Shown piece after piece: positions 674-21,090 of a DNA stretch of 64,000 nucleotides. The first letter of the stretch is position 1; each line of letters opens with the position of its first letter. The position numbers were made by a program, and so were the translations under genes. Source of the stretch: an uncultured Planctomycetia bacterium (GTDB lineage: Bacteria; Omnitrophota; Gorgyraeia; Duberdicusellales; Duberdicusellaceae); the NCBI GenBank assembly GCA_964634935.1, contig CAZWJT010000002.1, positions 10,570-74,569 on the forward strand. The letters are read 5' to 3'. Below the pieces are notes generated by a model. It made no database searches and had not been told where the DNA came from. It saw only the letters and a program-made list of their open reading frames with translations.

Positions 674-837
674 CTTTATCTTGATTTAATGCAAAAATTT
701 TCATTTTTAGGGGTGGGGGCGGTTTTCTGGTAACGTTACGGATGAAATAAAACGGTAATAGCTCGCGACTTATCAGAATAACTTGACAAGAGCTGTTTCA
801 GGATAGCGCTCAAAAATAGCGAGGTTGTACCGGTCAT

Positions 838-911
838 GCGCCTGTAGCTCAAACGGATAGAGCATCTGCCTTCTAAGCAGGTGGTTGGCAGTTCGATTCT
901 GCCCAGGCGCG
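838..911 (+). tRNA. tRNA-Arg (anticodon UCU); CCA not encoded
   Basis: Acceptor GCGCCTG/CAGGCGC, D-loop AGCTCAAACGGATAGAGC, anticodon loop CTTCTAA, T-arm GGCAGTTCGATTCTGCC, discriminator G. Confidence 0.8.
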
Positions 912-915
912 TTTT

Positions 916-2193: not shown

Positions 2194-2255
2194 GCGCACG
2201 AAGAAACTTTACAATCGGTTTTTTTTGTATATAGTATACAGTAAGGAGTACCCAT

Positions 2256-2666
2256 ATGAGTCATGTCTATCATGGTCCAGAACGGAGAAATTTTAAGCGG
2301 GTTAAAGTTAATCTTATCGTAGTTTATCGGGAAGATGCGCCGCTCGATGTGCATATCCGGGCAAGCGGTGTTGATTACCAGGCGTCGATGGTTGATATCA
2401 GTGAAGGCGGAATGTCAATTTTAACCGAGGCAAATATTGCGGTTTCTACGACACTCTGGATAAAATTTTCGCTCCTTGACCGTAAAGACAAAGGGGTTGA
2501 TTTCTATGGAACAATGGAGCTGAAAGGCAAGGTTTTGAGCAATATTTTACTTGAAGGAGATACCCACCGCCTCGGCATCCAGTTTTTCAGCGTTGAAGAA
2601 AAAGATAAGTCCGATATCGCCCACTTTGTAGAAATTATCGATCAGCGTTTCAATCCCGGAAGTTAA
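2256..2666 (+). CDS. PilZ domain protein (c-di-GMP binding)
   Basis: RRNFKR..(c-di-GMP switch) and DISEGGMSI match the PilZ RxxxR / DxSxGG motifs. RBS AAGGAG 8 nt upstream. Confidence 0.7.
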   Translation: MSHVYHGPERRNFKRVKVNLIVVYREDAPLDVHIRASGVDYQASMVDISEGGMSILTEANIAVSTTLWIKFSLLDRKDKGVDFYGTMELKGKVLSNILLEGDTHRLGIQFFSVEEKDKSDIAHFVEIIDQRFNPGS

Positions 2667-2798
2667 TCCGCAATATTTTTTTGTTCTGAAAACCAGAGAA
2701 TAAGTTTATTGTTTGACAAAAGCCGTTTCTTTTATACAATAGAAACGTTTCCCGGCAAAAAAACAAATACACTTTAAAAACTTGATGCAGCAACTTTT

Positions 2799-4535: not shown

Positions 4536-4987
4536 TGAAAAGAACATTCATCTGCATGATCACGGTGAATCTTTTGCTTGCAGGCTGTGCTGGTGCGCCT
4601 GTAGCGTCCATCCAGCGTACCGAAGAAAAAAAGAATGATTTTGTGCTCGCCGAAAAGGTTGTTCGCGACCTGTTTGATATCTACCAGGATTTTACCATGA
4701 AGAAATTCTCGGATGCCGTAGCAGATGATTTTGTTCCGATGCGCAGCGATTTTATCAATACCGCATCGAGGAATACCAGTAAAACCGTTCTTGTGGAAGT
4801 TACCTTTTCTTTGGAGCAGGTTTTGTCCAACAAGGATACGTTGGCAATAGAAATAAAGTGGCAAAAACACTCTCAGTCCTATGGCGATACGTCTGTAGGG
4901 TTAACGCAAGGGCGGGCCAATTTGGTATTTAAGAATAAACCAGGCCGGTGGCAGCTTTACCAGGTGAGCGGCGATAATCCATTTTAA
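4535..4987 (+). CDS. Lipoprotein (lipobox LLLAGC)
   Basis: MKRTFICMITVNLLLAGCAG is a lipoprotein signal. Translationally coupled to the upstream barrel gene. Confidence 0.55.
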   Translation: MKRTFICMITVNLLLAGCAGAPVASIQRTEEKKNDFVLAEKVVRDLFDIYQDFTMKKFSDAVADDFVPMRSDFINTASRNTSKTVLVEVTFSLEQVLSNKDTLAIEIKWQKHSQSYGDTSVGLTQGRANLVFKNKPGRWQLYQVSGDNPF

Positions 4988-5013
4988 TAGATGCACGAGA
5001 ACATGAGGAAACA

Positions 5014-9376: not shown

Positions 9377-9455
9377 GGTGGGTGTAGCTCAGTTTGGCTA
9401 GAGCACTTGACTGTGGCTCAAGATGTCGAGGGTTCAAATCCCTTCACCCACCCCA
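9377..9455 (+). tRNA. tRNA-His (anticodon GUG) with extra G-1 and encoded 3' CCA
   Basis: G(-1) precedes acceptor GTGGGTG/CACCCAC. Anticodon loop CTGTGGC. T-arm GAGGGTTCAAATCCCTT. Discriminator C followed by CCA in the DNA. Confidence 0.8.
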
Positions 9456-9462
9456 TATTTAA

Positions 9463-9518
9463 CCCTCATGCGAACCCGGACTCTTCGGAGCCACAAACGC
9501 ATGAGGGTTTTTCTTTTT
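9463..9518 (+). terminator. Hairpin plus T-run immediately after tRNA-His
   Basis: CCCTCATGCG ... CGCATGAGGG (10-bp stem, large loop) followed by TTTTTCTTTTT. Confidence 0.5.
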
Positions 9519-9553
9519 CTGGTGGGGAAGCGCTTGAGTTTGCTCCCCAAGAG

Positions 9554-10084
9554 ATGGTCGAGTTTATCAAATATCTGAAGAGCTATTCTTCGATATGGCC
9601 GAGAACTTACTTTTGTGAATTTCCTTTCTTTATCTCCATTACCAATTTTAAACGAAAAATATGCTTTGGAACACGGCCCGAAGACTTGGCCGATATGGGG
9701 ATTATTCATCAAAAAGCATGGGAAAGGCATCAGGCGCATTTAAATCGTCTGTCCCGATTTCCGCTTGATAAGGCAGAATATTATCAAAGGTTGAAGGAGA
9801 TGCATGCGGTGAATACCGTTCGTGGGCTTTCGACAATAACAGGGGAGGACTGGTCGTATATTGCTAAGATTCTTAGAGTTTTATTATTGCCGGAACCAAT
9901 TAAAGATTTTTTGAGGAATAATAAGAGCAATTCTGAGATTGTGAAGTTCTTCACTCTACGTCGTCTTCTTAATATTGTGCGGCAACGTGAGGAAAGGCTT
10001 CAATTAAGCTATTTCAGTGAGCTTATGGAAAAATATGGGATGGCGTTTATCGACTCTTGGACGCAGGATAACATCAAAAGATGA
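9554..10084 (+). CDS. Hypothetical protein (first gene of the island downstream of tRNA-His)
   Basis: ORF track 9407..10084 begins inside the tRNA. The first ATG downstream of the tRNA terminator is 9554 (MVEFIKYL...). No recognisable domain. Confidence 0.4.
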   Translation: MVEFIKYLKSYSSIWPRTYFCEFPFFISITNFKRKICFGTRPEDLADMGIIHQKAWERHQAHLNRLSRFPLDKAEYYQRLKEMHAVNTVRGLSTITGEDWSYIAKILRVLLLPEPIKDFLRNNKSNSEIVKFFTLRRLLNIVRQREERLQLSYFSELMEKYGMAFIDSWTQDNIKR

Positions 10085-10119
10085 ATCAAATCGCCGTGCC
10101 TAAATGTCCATTCCGTATG

Positions 10120-10147
10120 AATGTCCGCTCATTAGCGGACATTTTCT
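10120..10147 (+). terminator. Stem-loop after the hypothetical gene
   Basis: AATGTCCGCT-catt-AGCGGACATT followed by TT. The T-run is short, so this is a weak call. Confidence 0.3.
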
Positions 10148-10388
10148 AGCCAGCAGACATTTATAATAAAAGCGTAGGAACTGAAATTCCAATTAAGTTT
10201 ATTCACTTTTTCTGTATTCGGAAAAACAAGTAATATTTTGGGCTTCAAACGGCTCAAATTAGCCTGAAAAATAGTCTATTCCTGCAAAAATTGATTATTT
10301 TGCAGGCTTACGATAAAATGCCTTCGTTTTAGGTATTTGAGAATTTTTTTGATATTTTAGCCATAACATCGTGCAAGAAAAAAAAGAA

Positions 10389-10417
10389 TTGACAAATATT
10401 TGTTAAAATGGTATTAT
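10389..10417 (+). promoter_or_regulatory. Sigma70-like promoter TTGACA-N17-TATTAT for the ATPase/TOPRIM operon, overlapped by the near-palindrome TTGACAAATATTTGTTAA
   Basis: The -35 is 10389..10394 and the -10 is 10412..10417. The -35 lies inside an imperfect 9-9 inverted repeat, which could be an operator. Confidence 0.45.
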
Positions 10418-10462
10418 TACATTGTCAATAACGCTCAAAATAAGTATTTCAGGAGGGATAAA

Positions 10463-11689
10463 ATGATTCATTCATTTACGTTCAAAAATTTTTGTTCCTT
10501 TGCAAATAATGCCACAATATTGTTTCAGGATATTCGCAAAGGAGTAGAAACTAAGAGTAATATGTTTTGCGACACCTCGTTAGGCGACCGTGTAAGCAAA
10601 GTTATGATCGTGGTTGGGCCTAACGCGTCTGGTAAGACAAGCGCCCTTAAGGCGTTGGCTTTTCTTAGTTGGTTTGTGCGAAATTCCTTTGTTGGGCTGG
10701 AAGGGGAAAAGGAGCCAATCCCTGTCGATAATTTCGCTTTCTCAGAGGATAAAGAAAGCGTGTCGGAATTCGAATTGGTTTTTGATCACAAAGATGTTGT
10801 TTATAAATATATCCTGCATTTATGCAAAACCCATGTCATAAAGGAAGAGCTATACCGCAAAGAAGATACCCAGCATTTTAATTATATATTCAAGAGAAAT
10901 TGGAACGCACAGGCGGGGAGTTCTGAGATTGTTCAGCGCATAAATTTAAAGACAGAAATTCTTAAAGAAATCTTGCGCAAGAACGTGTCTTTAATTGCCG
11001 CGTCAGTCGCGATAAAGAACGATTTTCTTACAGATATTGCCGGGTTCTGGGAGAAGATCATTAGCAACGTTAATCGCATGGGAAAATCATGGGACACTTC
11101 TTCGCTTGGCGAACGCGGCTTATTTGAAGCCACAGAGGCCTATAATAAAAATCAAAATCTTTTTGTTAAAGTTGTTCAGTTTTTGAAAGACATTGATCTT
11201 GGTTTAGAGGGAGTGTTGATCGAAGAGGGAGAAGCTCGAAATCCTAAAACCGGAGAAGCGAAGAAAATTTATTTGCCATATGGCGTGCATAAGGTTAAGG
11301 ACAAGCAATATAAATTACCGTTAGCTTTTGAATCCAGCGGCACAAAAAATATGTTTGTGCTTTTGCATTTTCTTTTGCCAGCTATTGAGCAGGGCGGGCT
11401 TGCGGTAATAGACGAGCTTGAGATCGATTTGCATCCTCACGCCGTCCCGCAAATAATCGAGTTGTTCGCTAACCCAGCCACCAACCCTAAAAATAGCCAA
11501 CTCCTTTTTACTTCACATTCCCTGGAGGTTCTTAACCATCTTGAGAAGGAACAAATTGTTCTGGTTGAGAAAAAACAGGAGTGTAAAAGTGAGCTTTATC
11601 GGCTTGATGAATTGAAAGGAATACGTCGCGACGATAACATCTACGCAAAATATATGGCCGGTGCTTATGGCGCGGTTCCAAACATATAA
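10463..11689 (+). CDS. AAA_21/AAA_15 (ABC/OLD-type) ATPase, AbiLi/RloA/AriA-like
   Basis: Walker A VVGPNASGKTSALKAL. C-terminal ESSGTKNMFVLLHFL ... AVIDELEIDLHP ... LLFTSHSLEVL signatures. The ORF track starts at TTG 10400, but ATG 10463 has a strong RBS (AGGAGGG). Confidence 0.75.
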   Translation: MIHSFTFKNFCSFANNATILFQDIRKGVETKSNMFCDTSLGDRVSKVMIVVGPNASGKTSALKALAFLSWFVRNSFVGLEGEKEPIPVDNFAFSEDKESVSEFELVFDHKDVVYKYILHLCKTHVIKEELYRKEDTQHFNYIFKRNWNAQAGSSEIVQRINLKTEILKEILRKNVSLIAASVAIKNDFLTDIAGFWEKIISNVNRMGKSWDTSSLGERGLFEATEAYNKNQNLFVKVVQFLKDIDLGLEGVLIEEGEARNPKTGEAKKIYLPYGVHKVKDKQYKLPLAFESSGTKNMFVLLHFLLPAIEQGGLAVIDELEIDLHPHAVPQIIELFANPATNPKNSQLLFTSHSLEVLNHLEKEQIVLVEKKQECKSELYRLDELKGIRRDDNIYAKYMAGAYGAVPNI

Positions 11690-11705
11690 ATAAGGGAGCC
11701 GCGAT

Positions 11706-12248
11706 ATGACGCCAAGACGAATAAAGCCGACCAGAAACACAAAAACAACTGTTCTCATTGTAGGCGAAGGCCCTACCGAGAAAGCATTTTTGCAATATCT
11801 CAAGGAGTTATACGTCGCGTGTGATTATGCCTGTGCCGTAAAAGTAGAATGCGGTTCTGGCGGCTCACCTCGCTGTGTAGTGCAAAAAGCCATACGTTTA
11901 CGAGGTAGCAGGGCTTATGATAAGTGTTACGTGCTTTTTGACGCGGATAGGCCGCTTGAAACTGATTATAAATTATCTGATCGCATGAATAAGCGGCCTC
12001 GCGTTGAAGTTCTCAAGGCCACGCCATGCATAGAGGGGTTATTTTTGGCAATATTGAAACACCCCGGATTTTCTCAAGGAAGCGCCGCGTCACATGATTG
12101 CAAACGGGATTTCCATGCCGGTTACATATCCGAAGACAAAAAGATGGACAAACGGTCATATGGGGGGAAGTTTCCAAAAACGATACTGGATAGCCAAAGA
12201 GCGCAGGTTGCAGAGTTAGACCTTATTTTAAAGGCAATGCAGGTTTAG
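11706..12248 (+). CDS. RloB/DUF4276-like TOPRIM protein (AbiLii/OLD-nuclease-like partner)
   Basis: N-terminal basic tail then VLIVGEGPTEKAFLQYL (TOPRIM Glu) and VLFDADRP (DxD). Sits 16 bp after the ATPase gene; RBS AAGGGAG. Confidence 0.6.
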   Translation: MTPRRIKPTRNTKTTVLIVGEGPTEKAFLQYLKELYVACDYACAVKVECGSGGSPRCVVQKAIRLRGSRAYDKCYVLFDADRPLETDYKLSDRMNKRPRVEVLKATPCIEGLFLAILKHPGFSQGSAASHDCKRDFHAGYISEDKKMDKRSYGGKFPKTILDSQRAQVAELDLILKAMQV

Positions 12249-12316
12249 TGAATTTGCTTCAGGCGGTGTCGTCAGCAGGACGTTGTGGGTACCGGGAGCA
12301 ATAAACGGAGGATTTT

Positions 12317-12664
12317 ATGGGTGAAATAAAGGAACTTACAGAGAAAATAAAAGAATTCCGTGACGAGCGAGATTGGAAACAATTTCATAATCATAAGGAT
12401 ATGTCTCTCTCACTAATGCTTGAGGCAGCTGAAGTTTTAGAGCACTTTCAGTGGAAATCACAGAGCGAAGTCGAAAAACATGGAAATGCATGCAAAAATG
12501 AAATAGCTGAAGAGCTCGCTGATGTTGCTATGTACCTATTTGAGCTCGCAGATAATCTTGGTATTAATTTGTCCGATGCTATTGAGCATAAGCTGACAAA
12601 AAATGCTAAAAAGTACCCTGTAGAGAAAGCTAAAGGTAAACACACAAAATACGATAAATTATGA
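12317..12664 (+). CDS. MazG-like nucleoside triphosphate pyrophosphohydrolase (small all-alpha NTP-PPase)
   Basis: IKEFRDERDWKQFHNHKDMSLSLMLEAAEVLEHFQWK and EELADVAMYLFELA are typical of the MazG/dUTPase-like fold. RBS GGAGG. Its stop overlaps the next start (ATGA). Confidence 0.7.
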   Translation: MGEIKELTEKIKEFRDERDWKQFHNHKDMSLSLMLEAAEVLEHFQWKSQSEVEKHGNACKNEIAEELADVAMYLFELADNLGINLSDAIEHKLTKNAKKYPVEKAKGKHTKYDKL

Positions 12665-15075
12665 GGCTTTACTCGGGAACATCACAGCAATTCATTCAAG
12701 ATGCAATTCATAACCAAATCGCAGAGAAGTTAAAGAACGCATTTTTCGGATATTATCGTTACAATCCTTCCCCAGCGGAGATTAATTCTTGGCGCAACTC
12801 CCTTCGTTCGATTAGCCAAGTATTTCAGCATGCGGATCTGATGGATCATGGAGTTCTTCTTGAATACCAATTACCTTTAACTTCTCGCCGACTAGATTGC
12901 ATGATCTGTGGCCGTGATCAACAAAAAGCAGATAATGCTGTTATTGTGGAATTAAAACAATGGGATAGATGTGAAGAGGCGTATGGCGATAACGAAGTGC
13001 TCACATGGGTTGGAGGCGCAAAGCGAGAAGTATTACATCCTTCAGTCCAGGTTGGGCAATATCATCTTTACCTAGAAGATACGCACACAGCATTTAATGT
13101 TGATGATGACCCTGTTACCCTGAACGCTTGTACTTATTTACATAATTACAACTATTATTCCGACGACGTTATTTTTTCAGATAAATTCCAACTTCCTCTT
13201 AAACGGTATCCTCTATTTACTGCAGATGATGTTGAAAAGCTAACAGATTATTTGAGGGATAGACTTTTAACCGGAGACGGCCTAGATGTTTTACAAAGGA
13301 TCGAAGAAAGTAAATATCGTCCAAATAAAAAGCTCATGGATCACGTAGGTAACATAATAAAAAACAAAACAGAGTATATTCTGCTAGATGAGCAACTTAT
13401 CGTTTATGATGCTGTCTTGGGATGCGCAAAAAGAAGCTTCCATGATAAGCAAAAGTCTGTAATTGTTGTTAAAGGTGGCCCAGGCACTGGCAAGTCTGTT
13501 ATAGCAATTAACTTAATGGCTGACTTGCTATTGAAAGGTTACAACTCTCATTATGCCACTGGTTCAAAGGCTTTCACAGAGACATTGCGGAAGATCATCG
13601 GAACTCGCGGATCCGTACAGTTTAAATATTTTAACAGTTATGGTCAAGCAGAAGAGAATGCTGTAGATATTCTCATCGCGGATGAGGCCCATCGTATACG
13701 AGAGACAAGCAATAGTCGATTTACACCTCGCGCGAGCCGCTCCGAAATGACACAAATTGAAGAATTGCTTCGGGCGTCTAAGGTCGCGGTATTTTTTATT
13801 GATGATGACCAAGTAGTGCGTCCTAATGAAATAGGCTCTGTTGATTATATTAAGAGAATCGCAGACGATCGCAAAATCAAACTCCATGAATATGAATTAG
13901 AAGCTCAATTTCGTTGTAATGGATCTGATGCGTTTGTAAGTTGGATCAACAATACCTTAGGGATTAAAAGAACCGCCCATGTAATCTGGGATCAACATGA
14001 AGAATTTGATTTTAAGATATTTTCTAGTCCAATTGAACTTGAAAATGCCATACGTAATAATGTTGCACGAGGCTTTACTGGAAGAGTAACAGCTGGTTTT
14101 TGCTGGGATTGGTCGCTCCCGAATGAAGATGGTACGTTGAAAAATGATGTAATCATAGGAGATTATAAACGACCATGGGATGCAAAGCCGGAGGCTAAAC
14201 GCTTAGCTCCAGGTATTCCGAAAGCTTCCCTGTGGGCATATGATCCTAATGGTATTAATCAAGTTGGATGTGTGTATACTGCACAGGGTTTCGAGTTTGA
14301 TTATGTCGGAGTTATTTTTGGTGAAGATTTAGTATATGACTTTGATAAGCAAGAGTGGATCGGCAATTCGGCTAATTCCTCTGATAGCGTAGTTAAGCGG
14401 TCTAAGAACAAATTTGTGGATTTGGTAAAAAATACTTATAGAGTTTTATTAAGCCGAGGAATGAAGGGTTGTTACGTCTATTTTATGAATAAAGATACCG
14501 AGAGGTTTTTTAAATCACGAATTGAAGGTGATAATACACAAATAGATGAATCTTTAACCGTTTCTAGGCTTCTAGGTAGCGAGGTAGATTTTCTTGAACG
14601 TATTCTCCAAGACGTTGATAGCTCTTTGAAATACAAAGAATATTTACCAGTTTATACTTTGGCTGCGGCAGCCGGTGCATTCGGCGAAGGCATGGATGTT
14701 AAAGAAAAGGGTTGGATTAAGGTTAACATCGGTAAGGCTTTGAATAAAAAATTATTCGTTGCGAAAGTAATCGGTAAGTCTATGGAACCGTTAATTCCTG
14801 ATGGGAGCTATTGTGTGTTTAGTGCGAACGTTGTTGGCACGCGAGCGAATAAGATTGTTTTAGTTCAACACAGCAGCATTTCTGATCTTGATAGTGGCGG
14901 AAAATATACGGTGAAGAAATATACGAGTAAGAAAAAATACTCGTCAGATGACACTTGGGAACATGACGAAATAACTTTGTTGCCGCTAAATCCTGACTAC
15001 GCTCCCATCATAATACCGAATACCAATGAGGGCGAGTTTATGGTGATCGCAGAATTTATATCAGTATTAAAATAA
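12661..15075 (+). CDS. DUF2075-type nuclease/helicase: N-terminal PD-(D/E)xK motif, P-loop NTPase, C-terminal LexA/UmuD-type S24 autopeptidase domain
   Basis: RLDCMICG...AVIVELKQW matches D..ExK. Walker A VVKGGPGTGKSV and Walker B ILIADEAHRI. DUF2075 tail CVYTAQGFEFDYVGVIFGEDL. The C terminus has AAAAG (Ala671-Gly672) then 35 aa later VIGKSMEPLIPDGSYCVF (Ser707), TVKKY (Lys), LLPLNPDYAPIIIP, matching the S24 layout. Confidence 0.75.
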   Translation: MRLYSGTSQQFIQDAIHNQIAEKLKNAFFGYYRYNPSPAEINSWRNSLRSISQVFQHADLMDHGVLLEYQLPLTSRRLDCMICGRDQQKADNAVIVELKQWDRCEEAYGDNEVLTWVGGAKREVLHPSVQVGQYHLYLEDTHTAFNVDDDPVTLNACTYLHNYNYYSDDVIFSDKFQLPLKRYPLFTADDVEKLTDYLRDRLLTGDGLDVLQRIEESKYRPNKKLMDHVGNIIKNKTEYILLDEQLIVYDAVLGCAKRSFHDKQKSVIVVKGGPGTGKSVIAINLMADLLLKGYNSHYATGSKAFTETLRKIIGTRGSVQFKYFNSYGQAEENAVDILIADEAHRIRETSNSRFTPRASRSEMTQIEELLRASKVAVFFIDDDQVVRPNEIGSVDYIKRIADDRKIKLHEYELEAQFRCNGSDAFVSWINNTLGIKRTAHVIWDQHEEFDFKIFSSPIELENAIRNNVARGFTGRVTAGFCWDWSLPNEDGTLKNDVIIGDYKRPWDAKPEAKRLAPGIPKASLWAYDPNGINQVGCVYTAQGFEFDYVGVIFGEDLVYDFDKQEWIGNSANSSDSVVKRSKNKFVDLVKNTYRVLLSRGMKGCYVYFMNKDTERFFKSRIEGDNTQIDESLTVSRLLGSEVDFLERILQDVDSSLKYKEYLPVYTLAAAAGAFGEGMDVKEKGWIKVNIGKALNKKLFVAKVIGKSMEPLIPDGSYCVFSANVVGTRANKIVLVQHSSISDLDSGGKYTVKKYTSKKKYSSDDTWEHDEITLLPLNPDYAPIIIPNTNEGEFMVIAEFISVLK

Positions 15076-15085
15076 TAGGTTAGGC

Positions 15086-15790
15086 ATGATATTAAAACCC
15101 GGTGAAATAGTTTCTTATTTAACAATGTGCCAGCACGAAGGGGTAAACCTTCAGCGGGGCATGAATTTCCGGTTAAAGGGCGGGCTAAGTGTCATTTTAA
15201 TGAGCTTAAGAAAGAATGCCCCGTATGCTGATAGAGTCGAGGATGATGGTGGCGTTCTGATCTATGAAGGCCACGATGTTCCGAAATATCAGGGGTTAAA
15301 GCAAAATCCAAAACAAATTGATCAGCCAGGGCTTACTCCCTCAGGGGCATTAACCGAAAATGGCAAGTTTTTCAAAGCGGCCGAAGGATATAAGAAAAAT
15401 AATGGCATTCCAGAGCTCGTTAAAGTTTATGAGAAGATACGTAACGGCATTTGGACGTATTCTGGGATTTTTGAATTGATTGATGCATGGCAGGAAGCTG
15501 CTGGGAAGCGAAAGGTATTTAAATTCAAACTAAAAATTACCGATCGGTCAGAGGCCGATCGCGACCCTGCAAATAAGGACGACTTGGATCATACGCGCGT
15601 AATACCCACAGATGTTAAATTGGCGGTATGGGAGCGCGATAAAGGACGATGTGTTGTATGCAATTCGGCAAACAACTTGCACTTTGATCACATTATCCCA
15701 TTCTCAAAGGGCGGTACATCTTTAAAAGCAGAAAATATTCAATTGATGTGTGCAAGGCATAATCTAAATAAACGAGATAAATTAATTTAG
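15086..15790 (+). CDS. SRA(YDG)-like domain fused to an HNH endonuclease: putative type IV modification-dependent restriction enzyme
   Basis: C-terminal HNH: CVVCNSANNLHFDHIIPFSKGG...NIQLMCARHN. The N-terminal GGLSVILMS...YADRVEDDGGVLIYEGHD resembles the SRA motif S-V-L-SGG...Y-DD-D-G...YTG-GG. 10 bp after the DUF2075 gene. Confidence 0.55.
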   Translation: MILKPGEIVSYLTMCQHEGVNLQRGMNFRLKGGLSVILMSLRKNAPYADRVEDDGGVLIYEGHDVPKYQGLKQNPKQIDQPGLTPSGALTENGKFFKAAEGYKKNNGIPELVKVYEKIRNGIWTYSGIFELIDAWQEAAGKRKVFKFKLKITDRSEADRDPANKDDLDHTRVIPTDVKLAVWERDKGRCVVCNSANNLHFDHIIPFSKGGTSLKAENIQLMCARHNLNKRDKLI

Positions 15791-15970
15791 ATTCGATAAA
15801 CTTTTGATAAGGAAACGAATTAAATGGCATTGGTTTGTTGATCATTGGGTTTTGTTAGCTCAAAATTCGGGGAGCTTCACATTTTTTTGCTCCTGTGGCT
15901 CTAGACTGCGCGGTTTCTAATACCGCGAGGCCACCCCAGCTTAAAAATTTCTGCCAAATTTTTAAGCGTC

Positions 15971-16148
15971 CCAAAGCCATCCCGGGAAATATCCACAGGA
16001 AATTTCCCGGGTATTCAAACGGCGAGGGGCAGGATTACATATCGCTACTTCCAATGTCTTCCTGAGCATATCAATCAGATCTTCTGAATATCAAATGGCA
16101 GAGGGTTTTGTCTGGTAAAGGAAAACCTTTTATAATATAATGTTTTAT
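15971..16148. repeat. 178-bp direct repeat, copy 1 (identical to 18686..18863); contains a palindrome and a consensus promoter
   Basis: Base-by-base comparison of the two copies shows identity over 178 bp. Internal inverted repeat CCCGGGAAAT-N11-ATTTCCCGGG at 15981..16011. Confidence 0.9.
16108..16136 (+). promoter_or_regulatory. Sigma70 promoter TTGTCT-N17-TATAAT at the 3' end of repeat copy 1
   Basis: -35 16108..16113, 17-nt spacer, -10 TATAAT 16131..16136. Points toward the gene starting at 16323. Confidence 0.6.
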
Positions 16149-16322
16149 GCCCTTTTTGTAAATAAGAATGGCCTTGCCCGAGTGCTGGATTGTGCCGTCT
16201 ACCGAGATCAAAGGGCTTCTGTACAAGAACCCAAAGGGCAACCGATCGGTGATTGACTGTTATGGCGAGAAAGGCATGCTAAAAAGAGGGCTTCGCTTTA
16301 AGGATAACTGGGAGCTTCTGAA

Positions 16323-16820
16323 ATGACAGAATTGCTTCAAGCACAAGTTCGATCTATCGGCGAGCATTACGTTGTTGCTCGGCTTACGACGCTGGGGTTT
16401 ATCGTGGGCTTGGCGCCTGAGAATACAAGAGCTGTTGATATTATTGCGATGAGCGAGGATGGCAAAAGAAACCTCCAGATTCAGGTTAAAACGCGAACGG
16501 AAGGCCGTTCTGCCGATAAAGGCTGGATGATGAGTGAGAAACACGAATCCTTAGTGAATGACAATTTATATTATATTTTCGTTACTTTACCGGAGCAATG
16601 GACTGACCGCGATCAACCGTCCACTTTTATTATTCCATCAAAGAAAGTGGCCGCTATTGTTAAGCAATCGCATAAAGACTGGACATCCAGCCCCGGGCGT
16701 AAAGGTCAAAAGCGTAACGATACCAAAATGAGACGAATCAAGCCGATCTATTCAGATTCTCCATCAATTCCTGCTGACTGGATGGATGAATACCGGGATA
16801 ATTGGGAGATTTTGAAATGA
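16323..16820 (+). CDS. Small hypothetical protein with a PD-(D/E)xK-like motif arrangement
   Basis: GEHYVVARL ... VDIIAM ... LQIQVK resembles the E / D / (E/Q)xK restriction-endonuclease-fold core. No other match. Confidence 0.4.
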   Translation: MTELLQAQVRSIGEHYVVARLTTLGFIVGLAPENTRAVDIIAMSEDGKRNLQIQVKTRTEGRSADKGWMMSEKHESLVNDNLYYIFVTLPEQWTDRDQPSTFIIPSKKVAAIVKQSHKDWTSSPGRKGQKRNDTKMRRIKPIYSDSPSIPADWMDEYRDNWEILK

Positions 16821-17470
16821 CTTTAGATCGATATGTCGCATGGGCCTTGGCTAATATTAACATAACCCTTCCCGTTTCCCGCAGAGTTGAGGAAGATTGG
16901 TTATATAATTGGTCGAGGACGTTGGATGCGATTAACAGCGTGACTGGGATATTTGAGGTTACGTCGTTGATATTCTCACGGTCTGAGTTTCTTGGCGGTT
17001 TATATCTTGGAAAAACGGCGGATACAACAGCTGACGATTTTAAACTGTTCTGGGATAAGTTCTTCCCGGAGGAGTATAAGGATTTTCATAATATGAGCGG
17101 CCAAGGTAAAGGTTCAGACATCTTCAATGTATTCAGAAATAATATCCTTCACTCAGGGACAGCAACGGCGATTAAATCTGGTGCCGATGATATTATTGGC
17201 TGGTTGATGGGATACGGGGTAAATCCCGATGGCAAGGGCATATCTTTTAAGGATCGGGCGTTTCATATTGACTGCCAGAATCTAACTACCGAGTTCAAAG
17301 AGGCGCTGAAGAAATATATTTCTTACTTGAAAGATGATACGGATGATTTAAACGGACAGGGCATTCCAAGCGTACGCTGGAGAAAAGGATTTTGGTATAC
17401 CTTAAAGCCTGTTTATATGGATTCTGCTTCATGGGGCGCTTTAGGTCGAGATAATAAGATTTATTCTTAA
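16817..17470 (+). CDS. Hypothetical protein, translationally coupled (ATGA) to the upstream gene
   Basis: ATG 16817 overlaps stop 16818..16820. No recognisable motif. Confidence 0.4.
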   Translation: MTLDRYVAWALANINITLPVSRRVEEDWLYNWSRTLDAINSVTGIFEVTSLIFSRSEFLGGLYLGKTADTTADDFKLFWDKFFPEEYKDFHNMSGQGKGSDIFNVFRNNILHSGTATAIKSGADDIIGWLMGYGVNPDGKGISFKDRAFHIDCQNLTTEFKEALKKYISYLKDDTDDLNGQGIPSVRWRKGFWYTLKPVYMDSASWGALGRDNKIYS

Positions 17471-17485
17471 TGCGAGAGGTTAATT

Positions 17486-18436
17486 ATGGCGAAAATTATA
17501 TGCTTCACTGCAATATTATTGCTGAATACTATTTTAGCAAGCGCGCAGGATACCCCTTTGGAAAAACAACTGACATTGATATACAAGAATGCGGAAGATG
17601 CAACCACCAAAGGCGATATCGAGCAGTCAGATTTTTGGTTGGCCAGATACATGGGTTTAACAGCCACAGATGAAAACACAAACCGTGGCTACCCCGATTT
17701 AATCCCATTGTTTAAAAAACGAGAGGATTTAAAACCCACAGCATTTATCTCTGGAAAGTACGATGATAGTTTTATCGAATTCTACGCTCGCGGAACATGT
17801 GGCATGTGGGGCGCGCCCGATGAAGGTATTGATAGAGAAAAGCGAGAATTTATAATTCAGTCCTATTCAGATGGTCGCTATTTTGTCGAGATAACAGCTT
17901 CGCCTCGGCTTGAGAATTGGTCTATTTTAAAAGAGCCCGCAGTTGTAGCCGTTATCCCTCTCGGGAAAAACCCCATTATCCATTCAGGTAAACTTGATAA
18001 AAATGCGGTTGCTAAACGCTTCAAGAATATGCCCTTTGATATCGGAGAAAGTTTTATCCACTACGTCTGGCAACCGGAAATGCACGATTTAGATGGGGAT
18101 GGCATACCTGAAGTATGGATCCGCTATATTAAGGCTTGGGCCGATGGTTTTTCTCAGGAATTGGCTATATATAAAATTAAAGATGACAGTGATCTTGTCC
18201 TATTAAAGCAGTTCTCCGGTGAAGCCGAAGGCATTGCCAGACGCCTTGACGGGAATGGGGTCGAGATAGGCACCGGCTTTACTAATAAGAATGTTGGGCA
18301 TCTAGGTTTTGATCAGACACGCCTTGAAATATGGGCATACAGAGATGGCAAATTCATAAAGACTTCCGAAAGGAATGTTCCCCATATTCTCTGGAGTAAT
18401 GCATGGGAGAAGTATTATTTTAATAGTCAAAAATGA
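17486..18436 (+). CDS. Secreted hypothetical protein (signal peptide)
   Basis: MAKIICFTAILLLNTILASAQD signal peptide. RBS GAGAGG. Confidence 0.5.
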   Translation: MAKIICFTAILLLNTILASAQDTPLEKQLTLIYKNAEDATTKGDIEQSDFWLARYMGLTATDENTNRGYPDLIPLFKKREDLKPTAFISGKYDDSFIEFYARGTCGMWGAPDEGIDREKREFIIQSYSDGRYFVEITASPRLENWSILKEPAVVAVIPLGKNPIIHSGKLDKNAVAKRFKNMPFDIGESFIHYVWQPEMHDLDGDGIPEVWIRYIKAWADGFSQELAIYKIKDDSDLVLLKQFSGEAEGIARRLDGNGVEIGTGFTNKNVGHLGFDQTRLEIWAYRDGKFIKTSERNVPHILWSNAWEKYYFNSQK

Positions 18437-18463
18437 TGTTTTGCGGGACAATGGATTAGTTAG

Positions 18464-18506
18464 CAGGCTACAAGGCAGTTTCTAACCTGCTTAAGCCATC
18501 GACCCC
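18464..18506. repeat. 45-bp motif copy A (CAGGCTACAAGGCAGTTTCTAA core)
   Basis: A 22-nt perfect match plus a similar 20-nt extension relative to 20515..20557. Starts 28 bp after the stop of the secreted-protein gene. Confidence 0.7.
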
Positions 18507-18685
18507 AATGAAACTTACTTCTTTCTGTCTCGACAAAGCAGAAAGAAGTTTAGTTGAATTGTCCCCGAACAGCTTTCGGAAAATGTCAAAGAGATTTTCC
18601 GAATATGAGAGATGTTCGGGGTACAACACTGCATGCGGTGCAAAAAGCAGCGCAGGCCATCAGAAAAGGCCAAGGTTTAGTTACT

Positions 18686-18863
18686 CCAAAGCCATCCCGG
18701 GAAATATCCACAGGAAATTTCCCGGGTATTCAAACGGCGAGGGGCAGGATTACATATCGCTACTTCCAATGTCTTCCTGAGCATATCAATCAGATCTTCT
18801 GAATATCAAATGGCAGAGGGTTTTGTCTGGTAAAGGAAAACCTTTTATAATATAATGTTTTAT
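18686..18863. repeat. 178-bp direct repeat, copy 2
   Basis: Identical to 15971..16148. ORF-track ORFs 18508..18780 and 18554..18802 lie in it and are considered spurious. Confidence 0.9.
18823..18851 (+). promoter_or_regulatory. Sigma70 promoter TTGTCT-N17-TATAAT (repeat copy 2) driving gltA
   Basis: -10 18846..18851. gltA ATG 18935 with RBS AGAGAGGTGG. Confidence 0.6.
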
Positions 18864-18934
18864 AATCGTGTATTAAGAGATTGTACCTGTTGCTAAAATA
18901 AACCAGTATATGATGTCTGAAAGAGAGGTGGCAA

Positions 18935-20230
18935 ATGAATATTCCGGAATCAGGTAAGCCGCTCGATACGGCCGCAATAACAATTGGTGATAAGATCGTT
19001 TCCTGTCCTATTATCACAGGCGTTGAGAATGAGAAAGCCTTGGATATTTCTGGGCTTCGCAATAAAACAGGTTACGTGACGTATGACGAGGGATATGTCA
19101 ATACCGCCTCTTGCTTAAGCAGCATTACCTACATAGACGGGGAGAATGGAATATTGCGATACAGGGGGATTCCCGTGGAAGAACTTGCCGCAAAACGAAG
19201 CTTTATTGAAGTCGCTCATTTGCTTATTTTCGGGCACTTGCCGTCGGTTACAGAGAAAAGTACCTTTTCTAAACTTCTTACCAGTAACTGCATGATTCAT
19301 GACAATATGGTCAAGCTTTTTGATAACTTGCCCGGTTCAAGCCATCCCATGGCTACTTTGTCGGCAATGGTGGTGACGCTTTCTGCGTATTATCCTGAGT
19401 TGGTAAAGCCCGAGATGAACGCAGGGGAGATGAATAAAATTATTGCCGAACTTCTTGCCAAGATCAGGACCCTTGCGGCGTATTCATACAAAAAATCCAT
19501 CGGTGAACCTATCATTTACCCGAAACGCGAGTATAAATATGTCGAAAACTTTCTTCATATGATGTTTTCCACTCCTGTAGATGAATACCCCTTAGATCAA
19601 GAAGTGGTAGATGCCCTGGAAAAGATTCTTATCCTCCACGCTGATCATGAGCAGAATTGCAGTACTTCAACCGTGCGGTTGGTGGGAAGTTCTAAAGCCA
19701 ATCTTTTTGCGTCTATCTCTGCGGGTATTTGTGCCCTCTGGGGACCTTTACATGGCGGTGCGAATCAAGCCGTTATTGAGATGCTTGAGGCGATCGTTAG
19801 GGATAAGATAGATGTGAGGCATGTTATCGAGAAAGCAAAGGACAAAAATAATCCTTTCTTGCTTATGGGTTTTGGCCATCGAATTTATAAGAATTTTGAT
19901 CCCCGGGCGAGGATTATTAAGGAAATATGCGATAAAGTGCTCACGAAACTGGGTATCAATGATCCTTGTCTTGAGATTGCTAAAAAGATCGAGGAAGTAG
20001 CCCTGAAAGACGATTTCTTCATTCAACGCAAACTTTATCCTAACGTTGATTTTTACAGCGGCATAATTCTTCGCGCGATCGGTATCCCGACGAATATGTT
20101 TACCGTTATTTTTGCTATGGGGCGGCTTCCTGGATGGATCGCACATTGGAAGGAACAATGTGAGTCTCCCAATCAAAAGATTGGGCGACCCCGTCAAGTC
20201 TATATCGGAGCGCCACTGACGCATATATAA
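18935..20230 (+). CDS. gltA: Citrate synthase
   Basis: Canonical LILHADHEQNCSTSTVRLVGSS, GPLHGGANQAV, MGFGHRIYKNFDPRA motifs. Confidence 0.9.
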   Translation: MNIPESGKPLDTAAITIGDKIVSCPIITGVENEKALDISGLRNKTGYVTYDEGYVNTASCLSSITYIDGENGILRYRGIPVEELAAKRSFIEVAHLLIFGHLPSVTEKSTFSKLLTSNCMIHDNMVKLFDNLPGSSHPMATLSAMVVTLSAYYPELVKPEMNAGEMNKIIAELLAKIRTLAAYSYKKSIGEPIIYPKREYKYVENFLHMMFSTPVDEYPLDQEVVDALEKILILHADHEQNCSTSTVRLVGSSKANLFASISAGICALWGPLHGGANQAVIEMLEAIVRDKIDVRHVIEKAKDKNNPFLLMGFGHRIYKNFDPRARIIKEICDKVLTKLGINDPCLEIAKKIEEVALKDDFFIQRKLYPNVDFYSGIILRAIGIPTNMFTVIFAMGRLPGWIAHWKEQCESPNQKIGRPRQVYIGAPLTHI

Positions 20231-20514
20231 CGCTACCGGTTTTCAGGTCGGATATCGTGGGTGATTTGCTGTAGCGGTTATTCCTCTTATAAAAATCCCG
20301 GTTCTTCATGCAAGCAAGCTTCATAGCGACAAGGCCGTTCAACATTTCAAGAATTTTGATCAGATCCATCTTGAAATATTGAGAATATAGAAATGGGCAA
20401 TTTGTGAAAACTTCAGGACGGGATACCTCCTCATATTTTGTGGAAAGAATCTTGGGGGGGGTATTAGTTGGCAGCGCTGAAGGGTGTTCTATGAGATTAT
20501 AGGTGTTACGCCAA

Positions 20515-20557
20515 CAGGCTACAAGGCAGTTTCTAATCCGCTGAATCCGGCGATTCC
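20515..20557. repeat. 45-bp motif copy B (CAGGCTACAAGGCAGTTTCTAA core), with a partial upstream copy at 20463..20483
   Basis: See copy A. Located 284 bp after the gltA stop. Confidence 0.7.
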
Positions 20558-20649
20558 ACAGTTTGACTGCGTACGACCCTTGAATTTTGCATGATAATGT
20601 TTCTGACTGATGTTTTTATTGACTTTAAGAATATTTTTGCTATTATAAT

Positions 20650-20664
20650 TAGAAATAATTTCTA
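20650..20664. promoter_or_regulatory. 7-1-7 palindrome TAGAAATaATTTCTA: putative Fur-family (Zur) operator
   Basis: Perfect 7-1-7 inverted repeat ending 6 nt before the ATG of the Fur-family regulator gene. Fur, Zur and PerR boxes are 7-1-7 repeats. Confidence 0.45.
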
Positions 20665-20670
20665 TTTAGA

Positions 20671-21090
20671 ATGAGCACGCTAGAAGATTATTTAGGCAAA
20701 TTGAAACAGGGCGGGTTTAAACTCACGCCGCGCAGGCAGGCAATTATTGAGCTTTTTGTTGACGGCAAGAGCCACTTGACACCGGAAGATGTGTGGGAAA
20801 AACTCAAGAAGCAGTTCGACCATTGCGGGCTTCCCAGCGTGTACCGTAATCTGGAGAGCCTTGTCGAATGCGGGATATTAACAAGAATTCAGCAATTTGA
20901 CCGCAAGAAGCATTACGGATTGTGTTCATCCGTCCACAGCGACCACCACCATCATATTACCTGCGTGAAATGCGGAAGAGTTGAGGGAATACATGGTTGC
21001 ACAATCGGCAACGCGAAAAAAATTAAAGGATATAAAATTATCAGCCATTTTATGCAGGTGAATGGGGTATGTTCTGGATGTGCCCGATGA
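20671..21090 (+). CDS. zur: Fur-family metalloregulator, probably Zur
   Basis: Winged-helix N terminus (TPRRQAIIELF), His-rich HSDHHHHITC and C-terminal CxxC. Directly upstream of znuACB. Confidence 0.7.
   Translation: MSTLEDYLGKLKQGGFKLTPRRQAIIELFVDGKSHLTPEDVWEKLKKQFDHCGLPSVYRNLESLVECGILTRIQQFDRKKHYGLCSSVHSDHHHHITCVKCGRVEGIHGCTIGNAKKIKGYKIISHFMQVNGVCSGCAR

What the first reader, a model, noticed from the sequence alone, without database searches (positions are those of the whole stretch)
15971..18863. Perfect 178-bp direct repeat carrying a consensus sigma70 promoter and a 10-bp-arm palindrome; one copy heads a 3-gene cassette, the other drives gltA
15971..16148 and 18686..18863 are identical over 178 bp by direct comparison. 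Each ends with TTGTCT-N17-TATAAT (16108..16136; 18823..18851), 72 bp upstream of gltA in copy 2 and 175 bp upstream of the first cassette gene in copy 1. Each also contains CCCGGGAAAT-N11-ATTTCCCGGG (15981..16011; 18696..18726), a likely dimeric-regulator site or RNA hairpin. Perfect identity over 178 bp, with diverged flanks, suggests recent duplication or gene conversion of a promoter-plus-operator module: either a mobile promoter cassette or a shared regulon element linking the accessory cassette to central metabolism.
Basis: seen in the sequence. Interest (0 to 1): 0.65.

Follow-up and report, generated by a model that had tools for sequence, protein, structure and literature searches.

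The report
Duplicated defence-operon promoter now heading citrate synthase
A 178-base promoter segment from a restriction-modification defence operon of an uncultured Omnitrophota bacterium occurs twice, once before the decayed tail of that operon and once fused to a relocated citrate synthase gene; this is a tidy but not unprecedented case of a housekeeping gene borrowing a promoter.

Summary
15971-16148 and 18686-18863 are identical over 178/178 bases, occur only twice in the window, and have sharp ends. An independent k=31 metagenome contig (L111) breaks exactly 30 nt inside each copy, so the repeat is not an assembly invention.

The host is a Candidatus Omnitrophota MAG. The last 25 nt of the repeat hold a -10 box. 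In copy 1 only, that box runs on into a leader (16149-16177) that is 86-94% identical to the upstream region of restriction-modification (R-M) operons in relatives. So the promoter is native to a defence operon.

The "3-gene cassette" is that operon's tail. A microhomology deletion at about 16177 removed the R-M genes and 88 codons of a 140-aa nuclease-like gene.

gltA is the newcomer. In close relatives it sits 27 bp behind an aminotransferase gene in a purK-purE cluster. Here only the gltA block (18895-20231) remains. It is fused to copy 2 at about the predicted transcription start and lies on the remains of a second C316-like gene.

Best reading: a local promoter duplication, or promoter capture, in a defence island. 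There is no evidence of an autonomous mobile promoter element. The palindrome is a 14-bp-arm hairpin that is absent from the relatives examined. Promoter activity is inferred, not shown.

The parts
15971..16148 (+). Repeat copy 1 (R178). Its 3' side is native: it continues into the R-M-type leader.
   Evidence: 178/178 identity to copy 2. 16124-16177 is 94% identical to L099:2586-2639 and L100:34-87; 16138-16170 is 94% identical to L106:1-33; 16136-16177 is 86% identical to L109:182-223. All of these lie upstream of R-M operons.
18686..18863 (+). Repeat copy 2 (R178), fused at its 3' end to the relocated gltA block.
   Evidence: Identical to copy 1. It diverges from copy 1 and from all relatives' leaders exactly at 18864.
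15981..16011 (.). Hairpin/palindrome in copy 1: 14-bp arms, one mismatch, 3-nt loop.
   Evidence: -20 kcal/mol, z = -4.4. Not present upstream of the homologous promoters in L099 or L109.
18696..18726 (.). The same hairpin/palindrome in copy 2.
16108..16141 (+). Predicted promoter of copy 1. -35-like TTGTCT at 16108-16113. Two overlapping TATAAT boxes at 16131-16136 and 16136-16141. Only the second box is conserved in relatives. It puts the predicted start at about 16147-16149, the repeat's last bases.
   Evidence: pattern scan, 10 of 12. (TATAAT conserved in L099 and L109 at the same position). Function inferred, not shown.
18823..18856 (+). The same predicted promoter in copy 2. The predicted start is at about 18862-18864, giving gltA a 5' UTR of about 71 nt.
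16149..16177 (+). Remnant of the conserved R-M operon leader, cut by a deletion.
   Evidence: Matches the leaders of L099, L100, L106 and L109 up to ...GGCCTTGC. From there the window continues with L099:7848 onward, inside the 140-aa gene. The junction has the microhomology GGC(C/T)TTGC.
16168..16326 (+). 52-aa ORF. It is the C-terminal 52 residues of a 140-aa PD-(D/E)XK-like protein, with an ATG supplied by the leader. Probably a non-functional fragment.
   Evidence: Apart from its first residue (Met, from the leader ATG) and one C/R difference, it matches residues 89-140 of the L099 140-aa protein.
16323..16820 (+). A165, a PD-(D/E)XK nuclease-fold protein.
   Evidence: No direct Pfam hit. 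The family has 1161 representatives with invariant D39 and near-invariant Q54-V55-K56. 6 of 52 members hit PDDEXK_5. AF2 model pLDDT 96; the fold matches the SPARDA nuclease, I-Ssp6803I, Hjc and EcoRV.
16817..17470 (+). B217, unknown function.
   Evidence: No hits in Pfam, PADLOC, NCBIfam or PDB. Follows type III Mod-Res genes in L106, L107 and L112.
17486..18436 (+). C316, a secreted protein of an Omnitrophota-specific family. It is the last gene of these operons.
   Evidence: 81 homologues; every source name given is Omnitrophota/Omnitrophica or a generic label. The 85% hit is named 'secreted protein' in Ca. Omnitrophus magneticus. AF2 pLDDT 92.5, no meaningful PDB fold match.
18464..18507 (+). 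Conserved 44-nt right end of the module (CAGGCTACAAGGCAGTTTCTAACCTGCTTAAGCCATCGACCCCA).
   Evidence: All relatives share it, then most diverge immediately after ...GACCCCA; in all there are six different flanks.
18508..18685 (.). Spacer S between module 1 and repeat copy 2. Hairpin-rich, origin unknown.
   Evidence: No homologue in any fetched locus except L111. No residual similarity to the left flank of copy 1.
18864..18894 (+). 31-nt junction stretch between repeat copy 2 and the recognisable gltA block.
   Evidence: No significant homology to anything fetched. It may be a degraded aminotransferase 3' end.
18895..20231 (+). Relocated gltA block: the last 12 nt of the ancestral aminotransferase gene, the 27-nt spacer with its ribosome-binding site, and gltA (CDS 18935-20230).
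   Evidence: Pfam Citrate_synt E = 9e-136. 82-86% nucleotide identity to L089-L091 and L094-L097, starting at 18895/18896 and ending at 20228-20231. In those loci gltA follows an aminotransferase gene.
20270..20558 (+). Pseudogene remnant of a second C316-like gene (C') plus a degenerate copy of the 44-nt right end (20515-20558).
   Evidence: tblastn: C316 residues 154-181 match 20271-20354 (E = 7e-4), with further pieces out of frame. blastn: 20270-20354 and 20355-20553 match L106:6729-6813 and 7093-7287 at 76% and 71%. It is truncated at the 5' end, has a 279-nt internal deletion and contains frameshifts.

Best explanation
R178 is a local duplication of the promoter region of a restriction-modification (R-M) defence operon. 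It lies in an integrase-less defence island next to tRNA-His in a Candidatus Omnitrophota genome.

Copy 1 is in its original place. Its conserved -10 box runs straight into the leader that heads R-M operons in related genomes. In this genome a microhomology-mediated deletion joined that leader to codon 89 of a 140-aa nuclease-like gene. The R-M genes were lost, leaving only the operon's tail: a 52-aa fragment, the A165 PD-(D/E)XK nuclease-fold protein, B217 and the secreted protein C316.

Copy 2 is the derived one. It ends about where transcription is predicted to start. There it is joined to a promoterless block holding the last 12 nt of an aminotransferase gene, the ribosome-binding site and gltA. 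That block came from the purK-purE-aminotransferase-gltA cluster in which gltA sits in close relatives. It replaced most of a second, older C316-type gene.

Consequence: citrate synthase and the leftover defence genes are now read from identical promoters, and the 2.5-kb cassette is flanked by direct repeats that could loop it out.

Shown here: the repeat, its independent confirmation, the native status of copy 1's 3' side, the deletion junction, the loss of gltA's ancestral context, and the C' remnant.

Inferred: that the TATAAT region is an active promoter, that transcription starts near the repeat end, and the order and mechanism of the events.
For: - Repeat identity and copy number.
- Independent contig L111 ends 30 nt inside each copy.
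- Host and gltA relatives.
- gltA lies 27 bp behind an aminotransferase gene in seven loci from relatives with about 90% or higher protein identity (L089-L091, L094-L097). Nucleotide homology to the window is confined to 18895-20231.
- Window 16124-16177 matches the upstream region of R-M operons in L099, L100, L106 and L109. The match runs past the repeat end only in copy 1.
- The second TATAAT is conserved in position in L099 and L109.
- The cassette genes sit at the 3' end of type I-like and type III R-M operons in relatives.
- Deletion junction with microhomology, and the 52-aa ORF as the C-terminus of the 140-aa protein.
- C' pseudogene downstream of gltA.
- In relatives the sequence upstream of about -12 differs in every case. 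Two copies sharing 153 nt further upstream must therefore derive from each other within this lineage.
- Zero differences is unremarkable. At the 0.19% divergence between the window and L111, two 178-nt copies as old as that split would be expected to differ at 0.34 sites, P(0) = 0.71.
- Surrounding genes are defence genes (AbiLi/AbiLii, SLFN-type helicase plus S24 peptidase, SRA-HNH).
Against: - No transcript data exist. The promoter call rests on a motif that is no more frequent than chance in this region and on conservation of the -10 in only three distinct relatives.
- The origin of the 5' 153 nt of the repeat, and of both left flanks (15791-15970 and 18508-18685), is unknown. I cannot say which left junction is ancestral.
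- A copy-and-paste of just 178 bp to a site 2.5 kb away needs either two junctions formed together or several steps.
- The assembly graph implied by L111 fits the tandem arrangement. It fits equally well a single chromosomal copy plus a 2715-bp circle.
- The rest of the genome could not be searched, so further copies of R178 or a second gltA cannot be excluded.
Confidence: 0.62

Rival explanations
1. Gene conversion between two older tandem defence modules. Two diverged modules, each with its own promoter head and C316-type tail, were already side by side. gltA replaced the interior of the second module. The two promoter regions were later homogenised by gene conversion.
For: The two tails (C316/44-mer and C'/44-mer) are only about 67-70% identical, so two old modules did exist here. 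Head and tail units recur around different cargo in relatives.
Against: In relatives only the -10 and leader are shared between modules, and the sequence upstream of about -12 always differs. Yet the window copies share 153 nt further upstream. No residual diverged homology remains on either side of the 178 nt, which a conversion tract inside a longer old homology would usually leave.
Confidence: 0.17
2. Campbell-type insertion or loop-out polymorphism. The chromosome originally carried left flank-R178-gltA. A 2715-bp circle (leader remnant through spacer S plus one R178) integrated by homologous recombination at R178. Alternatively, the population is a mix of integrated, deleted and circular forms.
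For: A single crossover within R178 reproduces the observed structure exactly. L111 is bounded by the repeat on both sides, as expected for either topology. Direct repeats of 178 bp can recombine (established knowledge).
Against: The circle would carry no replication or recombination gene. This rival still needs an earlier event that fused R178 to gltA, so it adds a step rather than removing one. It does not explain why copy 1 has the native leader junction unless the circle came from a sister element with the same 153 nt upstream.
Confidence: 0.13
3. Autonomous mobile promoter element (MITE-like) or a conserved regulon operator. R178 spreads by its own mechanism, or is kept identical because a regulator binding the palindrome co-controls gltA and the cassette.
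For: It meets the formal definition of a putative mobile promoter family of size 2. The palindrome half-site ATTTCCCGGG with up to 1 mismatch occurs 15 times in the window against 5.1 +/- 2.0 in shuffles, but 4 of the 15 are the repeat itself.
Against: No terminal inverted repeats and no target-site duplications (read directly from the flanks). Only two copies in 64 kb. No match in plasmids, phages, viral contigs or the metagenome palindrome scan. The palindrome is absent from the homologous promoters in relatives. No regulator gene lies in the cassette.
Confidence: 0.05
4. Assembly artefact. The repeat or the join across it was created by the assembler.
For: The source is a MAG contig. A 178-bp exact repeat is longer than common k-mers, and its traversal may have been guessed.
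Against: An independent assembly from another run, 5 mismatches away, contains both internal junctions and breaks exactly at the repeat ends. All four junction types must therefore exist in real reads.
Confidence: 0.03

Closest known systems
Putative mobile promoters (PMPs; Matus-Garcia, Nijveen and van Passel, Nucleic Acids Res 2012, PMC3488235)
   Same: Highly similar non-coding stretches (at least 50 nt, at least 80% identity) upstream of non-homologous genes in one genome, with non-homologous upstream genes as well. They are proposed to rewire transcription. R178 fits the operational definition as a two-member family.
   Different: Here the donor context (an R-M operon head) and the recipient (a relocated gltA) can both be identified, and the junction lies at the predicted transcription start. 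Nothing suggests that the segment itself is mobile.
Promoter capture after gene relocation or deletion fusion, as seen in experimental evolution (from my own knowledge of that literature, not checked here)
   Same: A gene that has lost its own promoter becomes expressed by being joined to a pre-existing promoter through illegitimate recombination. Junctions show little or no homology.
   Different: The usual cases are deletions that fuse a gene to an upstream promoter. Here the promoter is present twice, so the donor operon kept its copy.
Integron (Pc promoter plus gene cassettes)
   Same: In relatives a fixed promoter-bearing head is followed by exchangeable cargo (type I-like R-M, type III R-M, accessory genes), and the array has a sharp, recurrent right boundary.
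   Different: No integrase, attI or attC sites were found. Each unit has its own promoter. The boundaries look like recombination between conserved head and tail sequences.
Defence islands or hotspots with conserved flanks and swapped interiors
   Same: R-M modules of different types are exchanged between a conserved head (-10 plus leader) and a conserved tail (C316 plus 44-mer) in related Omnitrophota. The window region is packed with defence genes.
   Different: One 'slot' here holds a central-metabolism gene (gltA) instead of a defence system.

Membership tests
Putative mobile promoter (PMP) family, as defined in PMC3488235 | At least 50 nt at 80% identity or more between the upstream regions of two coding sequences in one genome | tested here: met
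   178 nt at 100%. Definition read. The paper's pipeline samples fixed 100-nt windows near the start codon; I did not reproduce its exact windowing.
Putative mobile promoter (PMP) family, as defined in PMC3488235 | Downstream coding sequences are not homologous | tested here: met
   The 52-aa fragment and A165 (PD-(D/E)XK fold) versus citrate synthase. The right flanks show no similarity.
Putative mobile promoter (PMP) family, as defined in PMC3488235 | Upstream coding sequences are not homologous | tested here: met
   SRA-HNH gene (15086-15790) versus C316 (17486-18436). The left flanks show no similarity.
MITE or IS-derived mobile element | Terminal inverted repeats and target-site duplications; multiple dispersed copies | tested here: not met
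   The ends are CCAAAGCC... and ...GTTTTAT, with no inverted repeat. The flanking bases differ, so there is no target-site duplication. Only two copies in the window. The rest of the genome could not be tested.
Integron cassette array | IntI tyrosine recombinase with attI and a Pc promoter; cassettes ending in attC sites | tested here: not met
   No recombinase among the ORFs from 9.4 to 24 kb. The recurrent 44-nt right end is not an imperfect inverted repeat of attC type (sequence). No formal attC model was run.
Integrated element with att direct repeats | An integrase or recombinase gene, and short att repeats that are part of the target (for example a tRNA 3' end) | tested here: not met
   No integrase lies between or beside the repeats. 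The tRNA-His 3' end is not repeated anywhere in the window. The repeat holds a promoter, not a tRNA fragment.
Sigma-70-type promoter | -35 and -10 hexamers at 16-18-nt spacing that direct initiation about 7 nt downstream | tested here: inconclusive
   The motif is present (10 of 12), and the -10 is conserved at the same position in L099 and L109. However, the motif count in the region equals the chance expectation, and no transcript data are available.
Intrinsic terminator (for the hairpin) | A G+C-rich stem followed by a run of U | tested here: not met
   The stem is strong (-20 kcal/mol), but on both strands the tail is not a clear U run (UAUUCAAA and AUGGCUUU). The terminator scan did not call it.
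Rfam RNA families | A match at the gathering score | tested here: not met
   Only three tRNAs matched in the window. No match in L099, L106 or L109.

The most novel reading that the evidence does not exclude
In this Omnitrophota lineage a conserved head (a -10 box plus an ~85-nt leader, possibly structured) and a conserved tail (the secreted-protein gene C316 plus a 44-nt end with a razor-sharp boundary, ...GACCCCA) may form a two-ended slot. The interior would then be swapped by recombination: type I-like R-M, two unrelated type III R-M systems, accessory PD-(D/E)XK nucleases. In this genome one such slot would have taken up the housekeeping gene gltA, which also sits in at least four different contexts among relatives with about 89% or higher protein identity. 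That would be an integrase-free cassette-exchange system able to recruit core metabolic genes.
Probability: 0.2. Interest if true: 0.65.

Novelty: new member of a known kind. Interest (0 to 1): 0.38.

Why it matters
This is a cleanly resolved natural example of transcriptional rewiring in an uncultured phylum. A central-metabolism gene left its ancestral operon, landed in a defence island, and appears to depend on a promoter copied from a restriction-modification operon. Donor, recipient and junctions are all identifiable at base resolution.

It also shows how defence operons decay here: the R-M genes were lost by microhomology deletion while accessory genes persist. The remaining cassette sits between direct repeats that make it easy to lose.

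The finding does not reveal a new kind of element. Its wider value is the hint that head and tail sequences of these operons act as recombination handles for cargo exchange.

Tried and rejected
- **Exact-protein contig look-ups.** The window's own gltA and C316, and the 100%-identical representative P0001, are not on record.
- **Genome-contig scan with gltA.** The best hit had only 62% identity, so it gave no useful relatives.
- **Metagenome scan for the palindrome with a free loop.** Eight unrelated hairpins and no R178.
- **Viral-contig scans** for the leader and the 44-nt tail: nothing.
- **R178 against plasmids and phages:** nothing.
- **Residual homology beyond the repeat.** None between the two left flanks or the two right flanks. 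This argues against a longer old duplication.
- **tRNA-His att-type repeat:** none.
- **Rfam** on the window and on relatives' leaders: nothing beyond tRNAs.
- **Consensus fold of the leader.** Three sequences give one compensatory pair, too few to judge.
- **C316 fold search.** Only weak beta-propeller-like matches with TM below 0.3; not informative.
- **Function of the cassette proteins.** Pfam, PADLOC and NCBIfam gave no hits for A165, B217, C316 or the 140-aa protein, and PDB sequence searches of A165, B217 and C316 gave none.
- **MITE, integron and att-site readings** were considered and rejected (see the membership tests).


Full report
**1. The observation**

The two stretches 15971-16148 and 18686-18863 are identical at all 178 positions. 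The bases just outside differ on both sides. A sensitive blastn of the 178-mer finds no third copy in the 64-kb window. The copies are 2715 bp apart start to start and enclose 2537 bp.

It matches 10 of 12 consensus positions. The surrounding 6 kb holds as many promoter-like sites as shuffled sequence does (15 against 14.0 +/- 3.9), so the motif alone proves nothing.

The palindrome is also there. When folded it is a nearly perfect hairpin with 14-bp arms, one A/A mismatch and a 3-nt loop. Its energy is -20 kcal/mol and no shuffle folds as well.

**2. The repeat is not an assembly artefact**

A Logan contig from run SRR12133403 (L111, 2597 bp) equals window 16119-18715 with five mismatches. 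It begins with the last 30 nt of the repeat and ends with the first 30 nt. That is how a k=31 graph breaks at a two-copy repeat.

So a second, slightly different population carries the same internal junctions (16148/16149 and 18685/18686). Its graph branches at the same repeat ends. The data cannot distinguish the tandem arrangement from one chromosomal copy plus a 2715-bp circle.

**3. Host and neighbourhood**

The gltA product is 100% identical to a protein from a 266,689-bp NCBI contig. Its named nearest relatives are all annotated as Candidatus Omnitrophota or Omnitrophica MAGs.

Between tRNA-His (9378-9455) and gltA lies an island with no integrase, made of defence genes:
- AbiLi/AbiLii (10400-12248)
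- a small ORF with no family hit, 12317-12664
- an SLFN-type helicase fused to an S24 peptidase (12661-15075)
- an SRA-HNH nuclease (15086-15790)

No copy of the tRNA 3' end marks an island border.

**4. gltA is the newcomer**

In seven loci from relatives with about 90% or higher protein identity (L089-L091, L094-L097), gltA lies 27-28 bp behind an aminotransferase gene in a purK / hexapeptide-repeat / purE / aminotransferase / gltA cluster.

Nucleotide homology between these loci and the window (82-86%) starts at 18895/18896 and stops at 20228-20231. That start is 12 nt inside the aminotransferase gene's 3' end. Nothing else from that cluster is in the window.

Two further relatives (L092, L093) carry gltA in yet other contexts. 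L093 still has a remnant of the aminotransferase C-terminus in front of it. So in this genome gltA arrived as a promoterless block. The 178-nt segment is not its ancestral upstream region.

**5. The promoter belongs to a restriction-modification operon**

Close homologues of the cassette proteins were traced to contigs from other metagenomes. There the genes sit at the 3' end of R-M operons:

| Loci | Gene order |
|---|---|
| L099, L100 | type I-like R subunit, N6_Mtase/Eco57I, 140-aa protein, A165, C316 |
| L098 | type III Mod, Res, 140-aa protein, A165, C316 |
| L109 | type III Mod, Res, 140-aa protein, A165 homologue (168 aa), NYN-domain gene |
| L106, L107, L112 | type III Mod, Res, B217, C316 |

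Window 16124-16177 is 94% identical to L099:2586-2639 and L100:34-87. Window 16138-16170 is 94% identical to L106:1-33, and 16136-16177 is 86% identical to L109:182-223. All of these lie directly upstream of the first R-M gene.

This match spans the repeat's 3' end. Copy 1 runs on into the family's leader (GCCCTTTTTGTAAATAAGAATGGCCTTGC). Copy 2 departs from it exactly at 18864. Copy 1 is therefore native on its 3' side, and copy 2 is derived.

The hexamer conserved in all relatives is the second TATAAT (16136-16141 and 18851-18856). With the usual spacing, the start falls at about 16147-16149. The repeat therefore ends at the predicted transcription start.

In the relatives whose upstream region is held (L099/L100 and L109), the sequence upstream of about -12 is different in each case. 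A divergent gene lies there in L099. What looks like the end of an insertion sequence lies there in L109, by my reading of the sequence.

Sharing a further 153 nt upstream thus means that the two window copies derive from each other within this lineage. They are not the heads of two independent elements.

**6. The "3-gene cassette" is a decayed operon**

At about 16177 the leader is joined to the sequence matching L099:7848 onward, codon 89 of the 140-aa gene. The junction shows the microhomology GGC(C/T)TTGC.

The 52-aa ORF at 16168-16326 corresponds to the last 52 residues of that protein. Its ATG is supplied by the leader, so its first residue differs. The 140-aa protein is a paralogue of A165 (26% identity). 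This explains the 26-nt repeat 16302-16327 / 16796-16821.

What is known of the three remaining proteins:
- **A165** has a PD-(D/E)XK nuclease fold. D39 is invariant and Q54-V55-K56 nearly so. 6 of 52 family members hit PDDEXK_5. An AF2 model with pLDDT 96 matches the SPARDA nuclease, I-Ssp6803I, Hjc and EcoRV.
- **B217** has no recognisable relatives.
- **C316** has a signal-peptide-like N-terminus (my reading of the sequence). It belongs to a family of 81 proteins; every source name given is Omnitrophota/Omnitrophica or a generic label. Its model is confident but matches no solved fold.

All four reading frames are intact in L111 as well.

**7. What lies under gltA**

Downstream of gltA, 20270-20553 is a remnant of a second C316-type gene. 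Residues 154-181 are recognisable (E = 7e-4). They are followed directly by the last ~50 codons, with frameshifts. This reflects a 5' truncation and a 279-nt internal deletion relative to L106.

The remnant ends in a degenerate copy (20515-20558) of the 44-nt sequence that ends the C316 module (18464-18507). It is only 67-76% identical to C316 and its relatives, so it is old. The fur-znuACB region follows.

The gltA block therefore replaced the interior of an older module. Only part of that module's tail survives.

**8. How the repeat arose**

The simplest account is a local duplication. A promoter-bearing segment was placed, at or after gltA's arrival, directly in front of the promoterless block. 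Selection for citrate synthase expression would favour such an event.

Perfect identity needs no special pleading. At the 0.19% divergence between the window and L111, two copies as old as that split would be expected to differ at 0.34 positions.

Two rivals remain:
- **Gene conversion between two old module heads.** The tails show that two modules existed. Against it stand the 153 nt of non-family sequence shared upstream and the lack of any residual homology outside the 178 nt.
- **Integration or loop-out of a 2715-bp circle by recombination at R178.** This reproduces the structure but still needs an earlier R178-gltA fusion.

A self-mobile element is unlikely. There are no inverted ends, no target duplication and only two copies. 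Nothing matched in plasmids, phages, viral contigs or the metagenome palindrome scan.

**9. The palindrome**

It sits at the 5' end of the repeat, about 125-155 nt upstream of the -10 box. It is missing from the homologous promoters of L099 and L109.

It lacks a clear U-tail on either strand, and the terminator scan did not call it. Its half-site is somewhat enriched in the window (15 against 5.1 +/- 2.0), but four of those sites are the repeat itself and the others carry mismatches or lie inside genes.

It could be a transcript-end hairpin, an insulating hairpin or a protein site. Nothing here decides between these. It is not a conserved part of the promoter family.

**10. Comparison with known systems**

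By the operational definition of Matus-Garcia et al. (PMC3488235), R178 is a two-member "putative mobile promoter" family. It has at least 50 nt at 80% identity or more upstream of non-homologous genes, with non-homologous upstream genes as well.

In mechanism it looks like promoter capture after gene relocation. It fails the tests for a MITE, an integron and an att-flanked integrated element (see the membership tests).

**11. A wider pattern, only partly followed**

L098 and L099 share only a sharply bounded 1952-bp module (140-aa gene, A165, C316, 44-mer) at 97% identity. It sits behind unrelated R-M genes.

L099, L106 and L109 share only the ~85-nt head (-10 plus leader), in front of otherwise unalignable R-M genes.

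Almost all loci lose similarity immediately after ...GACCCCA, into six different flanks.

Head and tail thus behave as recombination handles around exchangeable cargo. In the window one such slot holds gltA. Whether this is ordinary defence-island mosaicism or a more specific exchange mechanism is open.

**12. Verdict**

The ideas of a mobile cassette or a designed regulon do not.

The locus is a well-documented instance of a known phenomenon, so interest is moderate (0.38). The main uncertainties are promoter activity, which is inferred, and the exact order of events.

Noticed in passing
L099:2596-2692, L106:1-113, L109:180-268; remnant at window 16149-16177: An ~85-nt leader (GTTTTATRCCCTTTTTGTAAATAAGAWTGRCC... 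then a hairpin, GGCGGT...ACCGCC in L106 against GGTGGT...ATCACC in L099) heads three otherwise unalignable R-M operons (one type I-like, two type III). It shows one compensatory pair and has no Rfam match. It may be a regulatory 5' UTR for R-M expression.
   Followed up: partly
window 18464-18507 and 20515-20558; L098:9473-9516 and the equivalent positions in L099-L108: A 44-nt sequence after C316 is shared by all relatives. In most of them similarity stops at once after ...GACCCCA, and six different flanks follow. In L101 a convergent 533-aa gene takes its last 16 codons from this sequence. This looks like a recurrent recombination breakpoint or an element end.
   Followed up: partly
L089-L097 compared with window 18895-20231: Among relatives with about 89% or higher protein identity, gltA sits in at least four different genomic contexts: behind an aminotransferase gene; before CorA; after a 1761-aa protein with an aminotransferase remnant; and in the window's defence island. 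That is unusual mobility for a core TCA-cycle gene.
   Followed up: partly
window 9456-15790: A defence island with no integrase, next to tRNA-His. It holds a ParB-HTH-like ORF, AbiLi/AbiLii (AAA_21 plus RloB), a small ORF with no family hit (12317-12664), an SLFN/DUF2075-type helicase fused to an S24 peptidase domain, and an SRA-HNH nuclease. No tRNA-derived direct repeat marks its far end.
   Followed up: partly
window 16302-16327 and 16796-16821: A 26-nt direct repeat (88% identical) at two gene junctions. It is explained by paralogy: the 140-aa protein and A165 share the C-terminal motif DNWE(L/I)LK, and in each case the next gene starts in an ATGA overlap.
   Followed up: yes
window 20559-20670: The fur-type regulator gene (20671-21090), followed by a znuA/znuC/znuB-like operon, is preceded by TTGACT-N16-TATTAT. 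There is also an AT-rich palindrome (AATTAGAAATAATTTCTATTT) that looks like a Fur/Zur box. This is where the core genome resumes after the second 44-mer.
   Followed up: no
window 599-912 and 916-9246: tRNA-Pro and tRNA-Arg are separated from tRNA-His by about 8.5 kb. That stretch encodes large proteins not characterised here, including one of 1410 aa, and a 136-aa ORF that looked PilZ-like to me (not scanned). It may be a second insertion within a tRNA cluster.
   Followed up: no
L109:1-140: Upstream of the R-M head in L109, the sequence reads like the 3' end of an ISL3-family transposase and its terminal repeat (...GGTGAAGAGCC). I recognised this from memory and did not test it.
   Followed up: no
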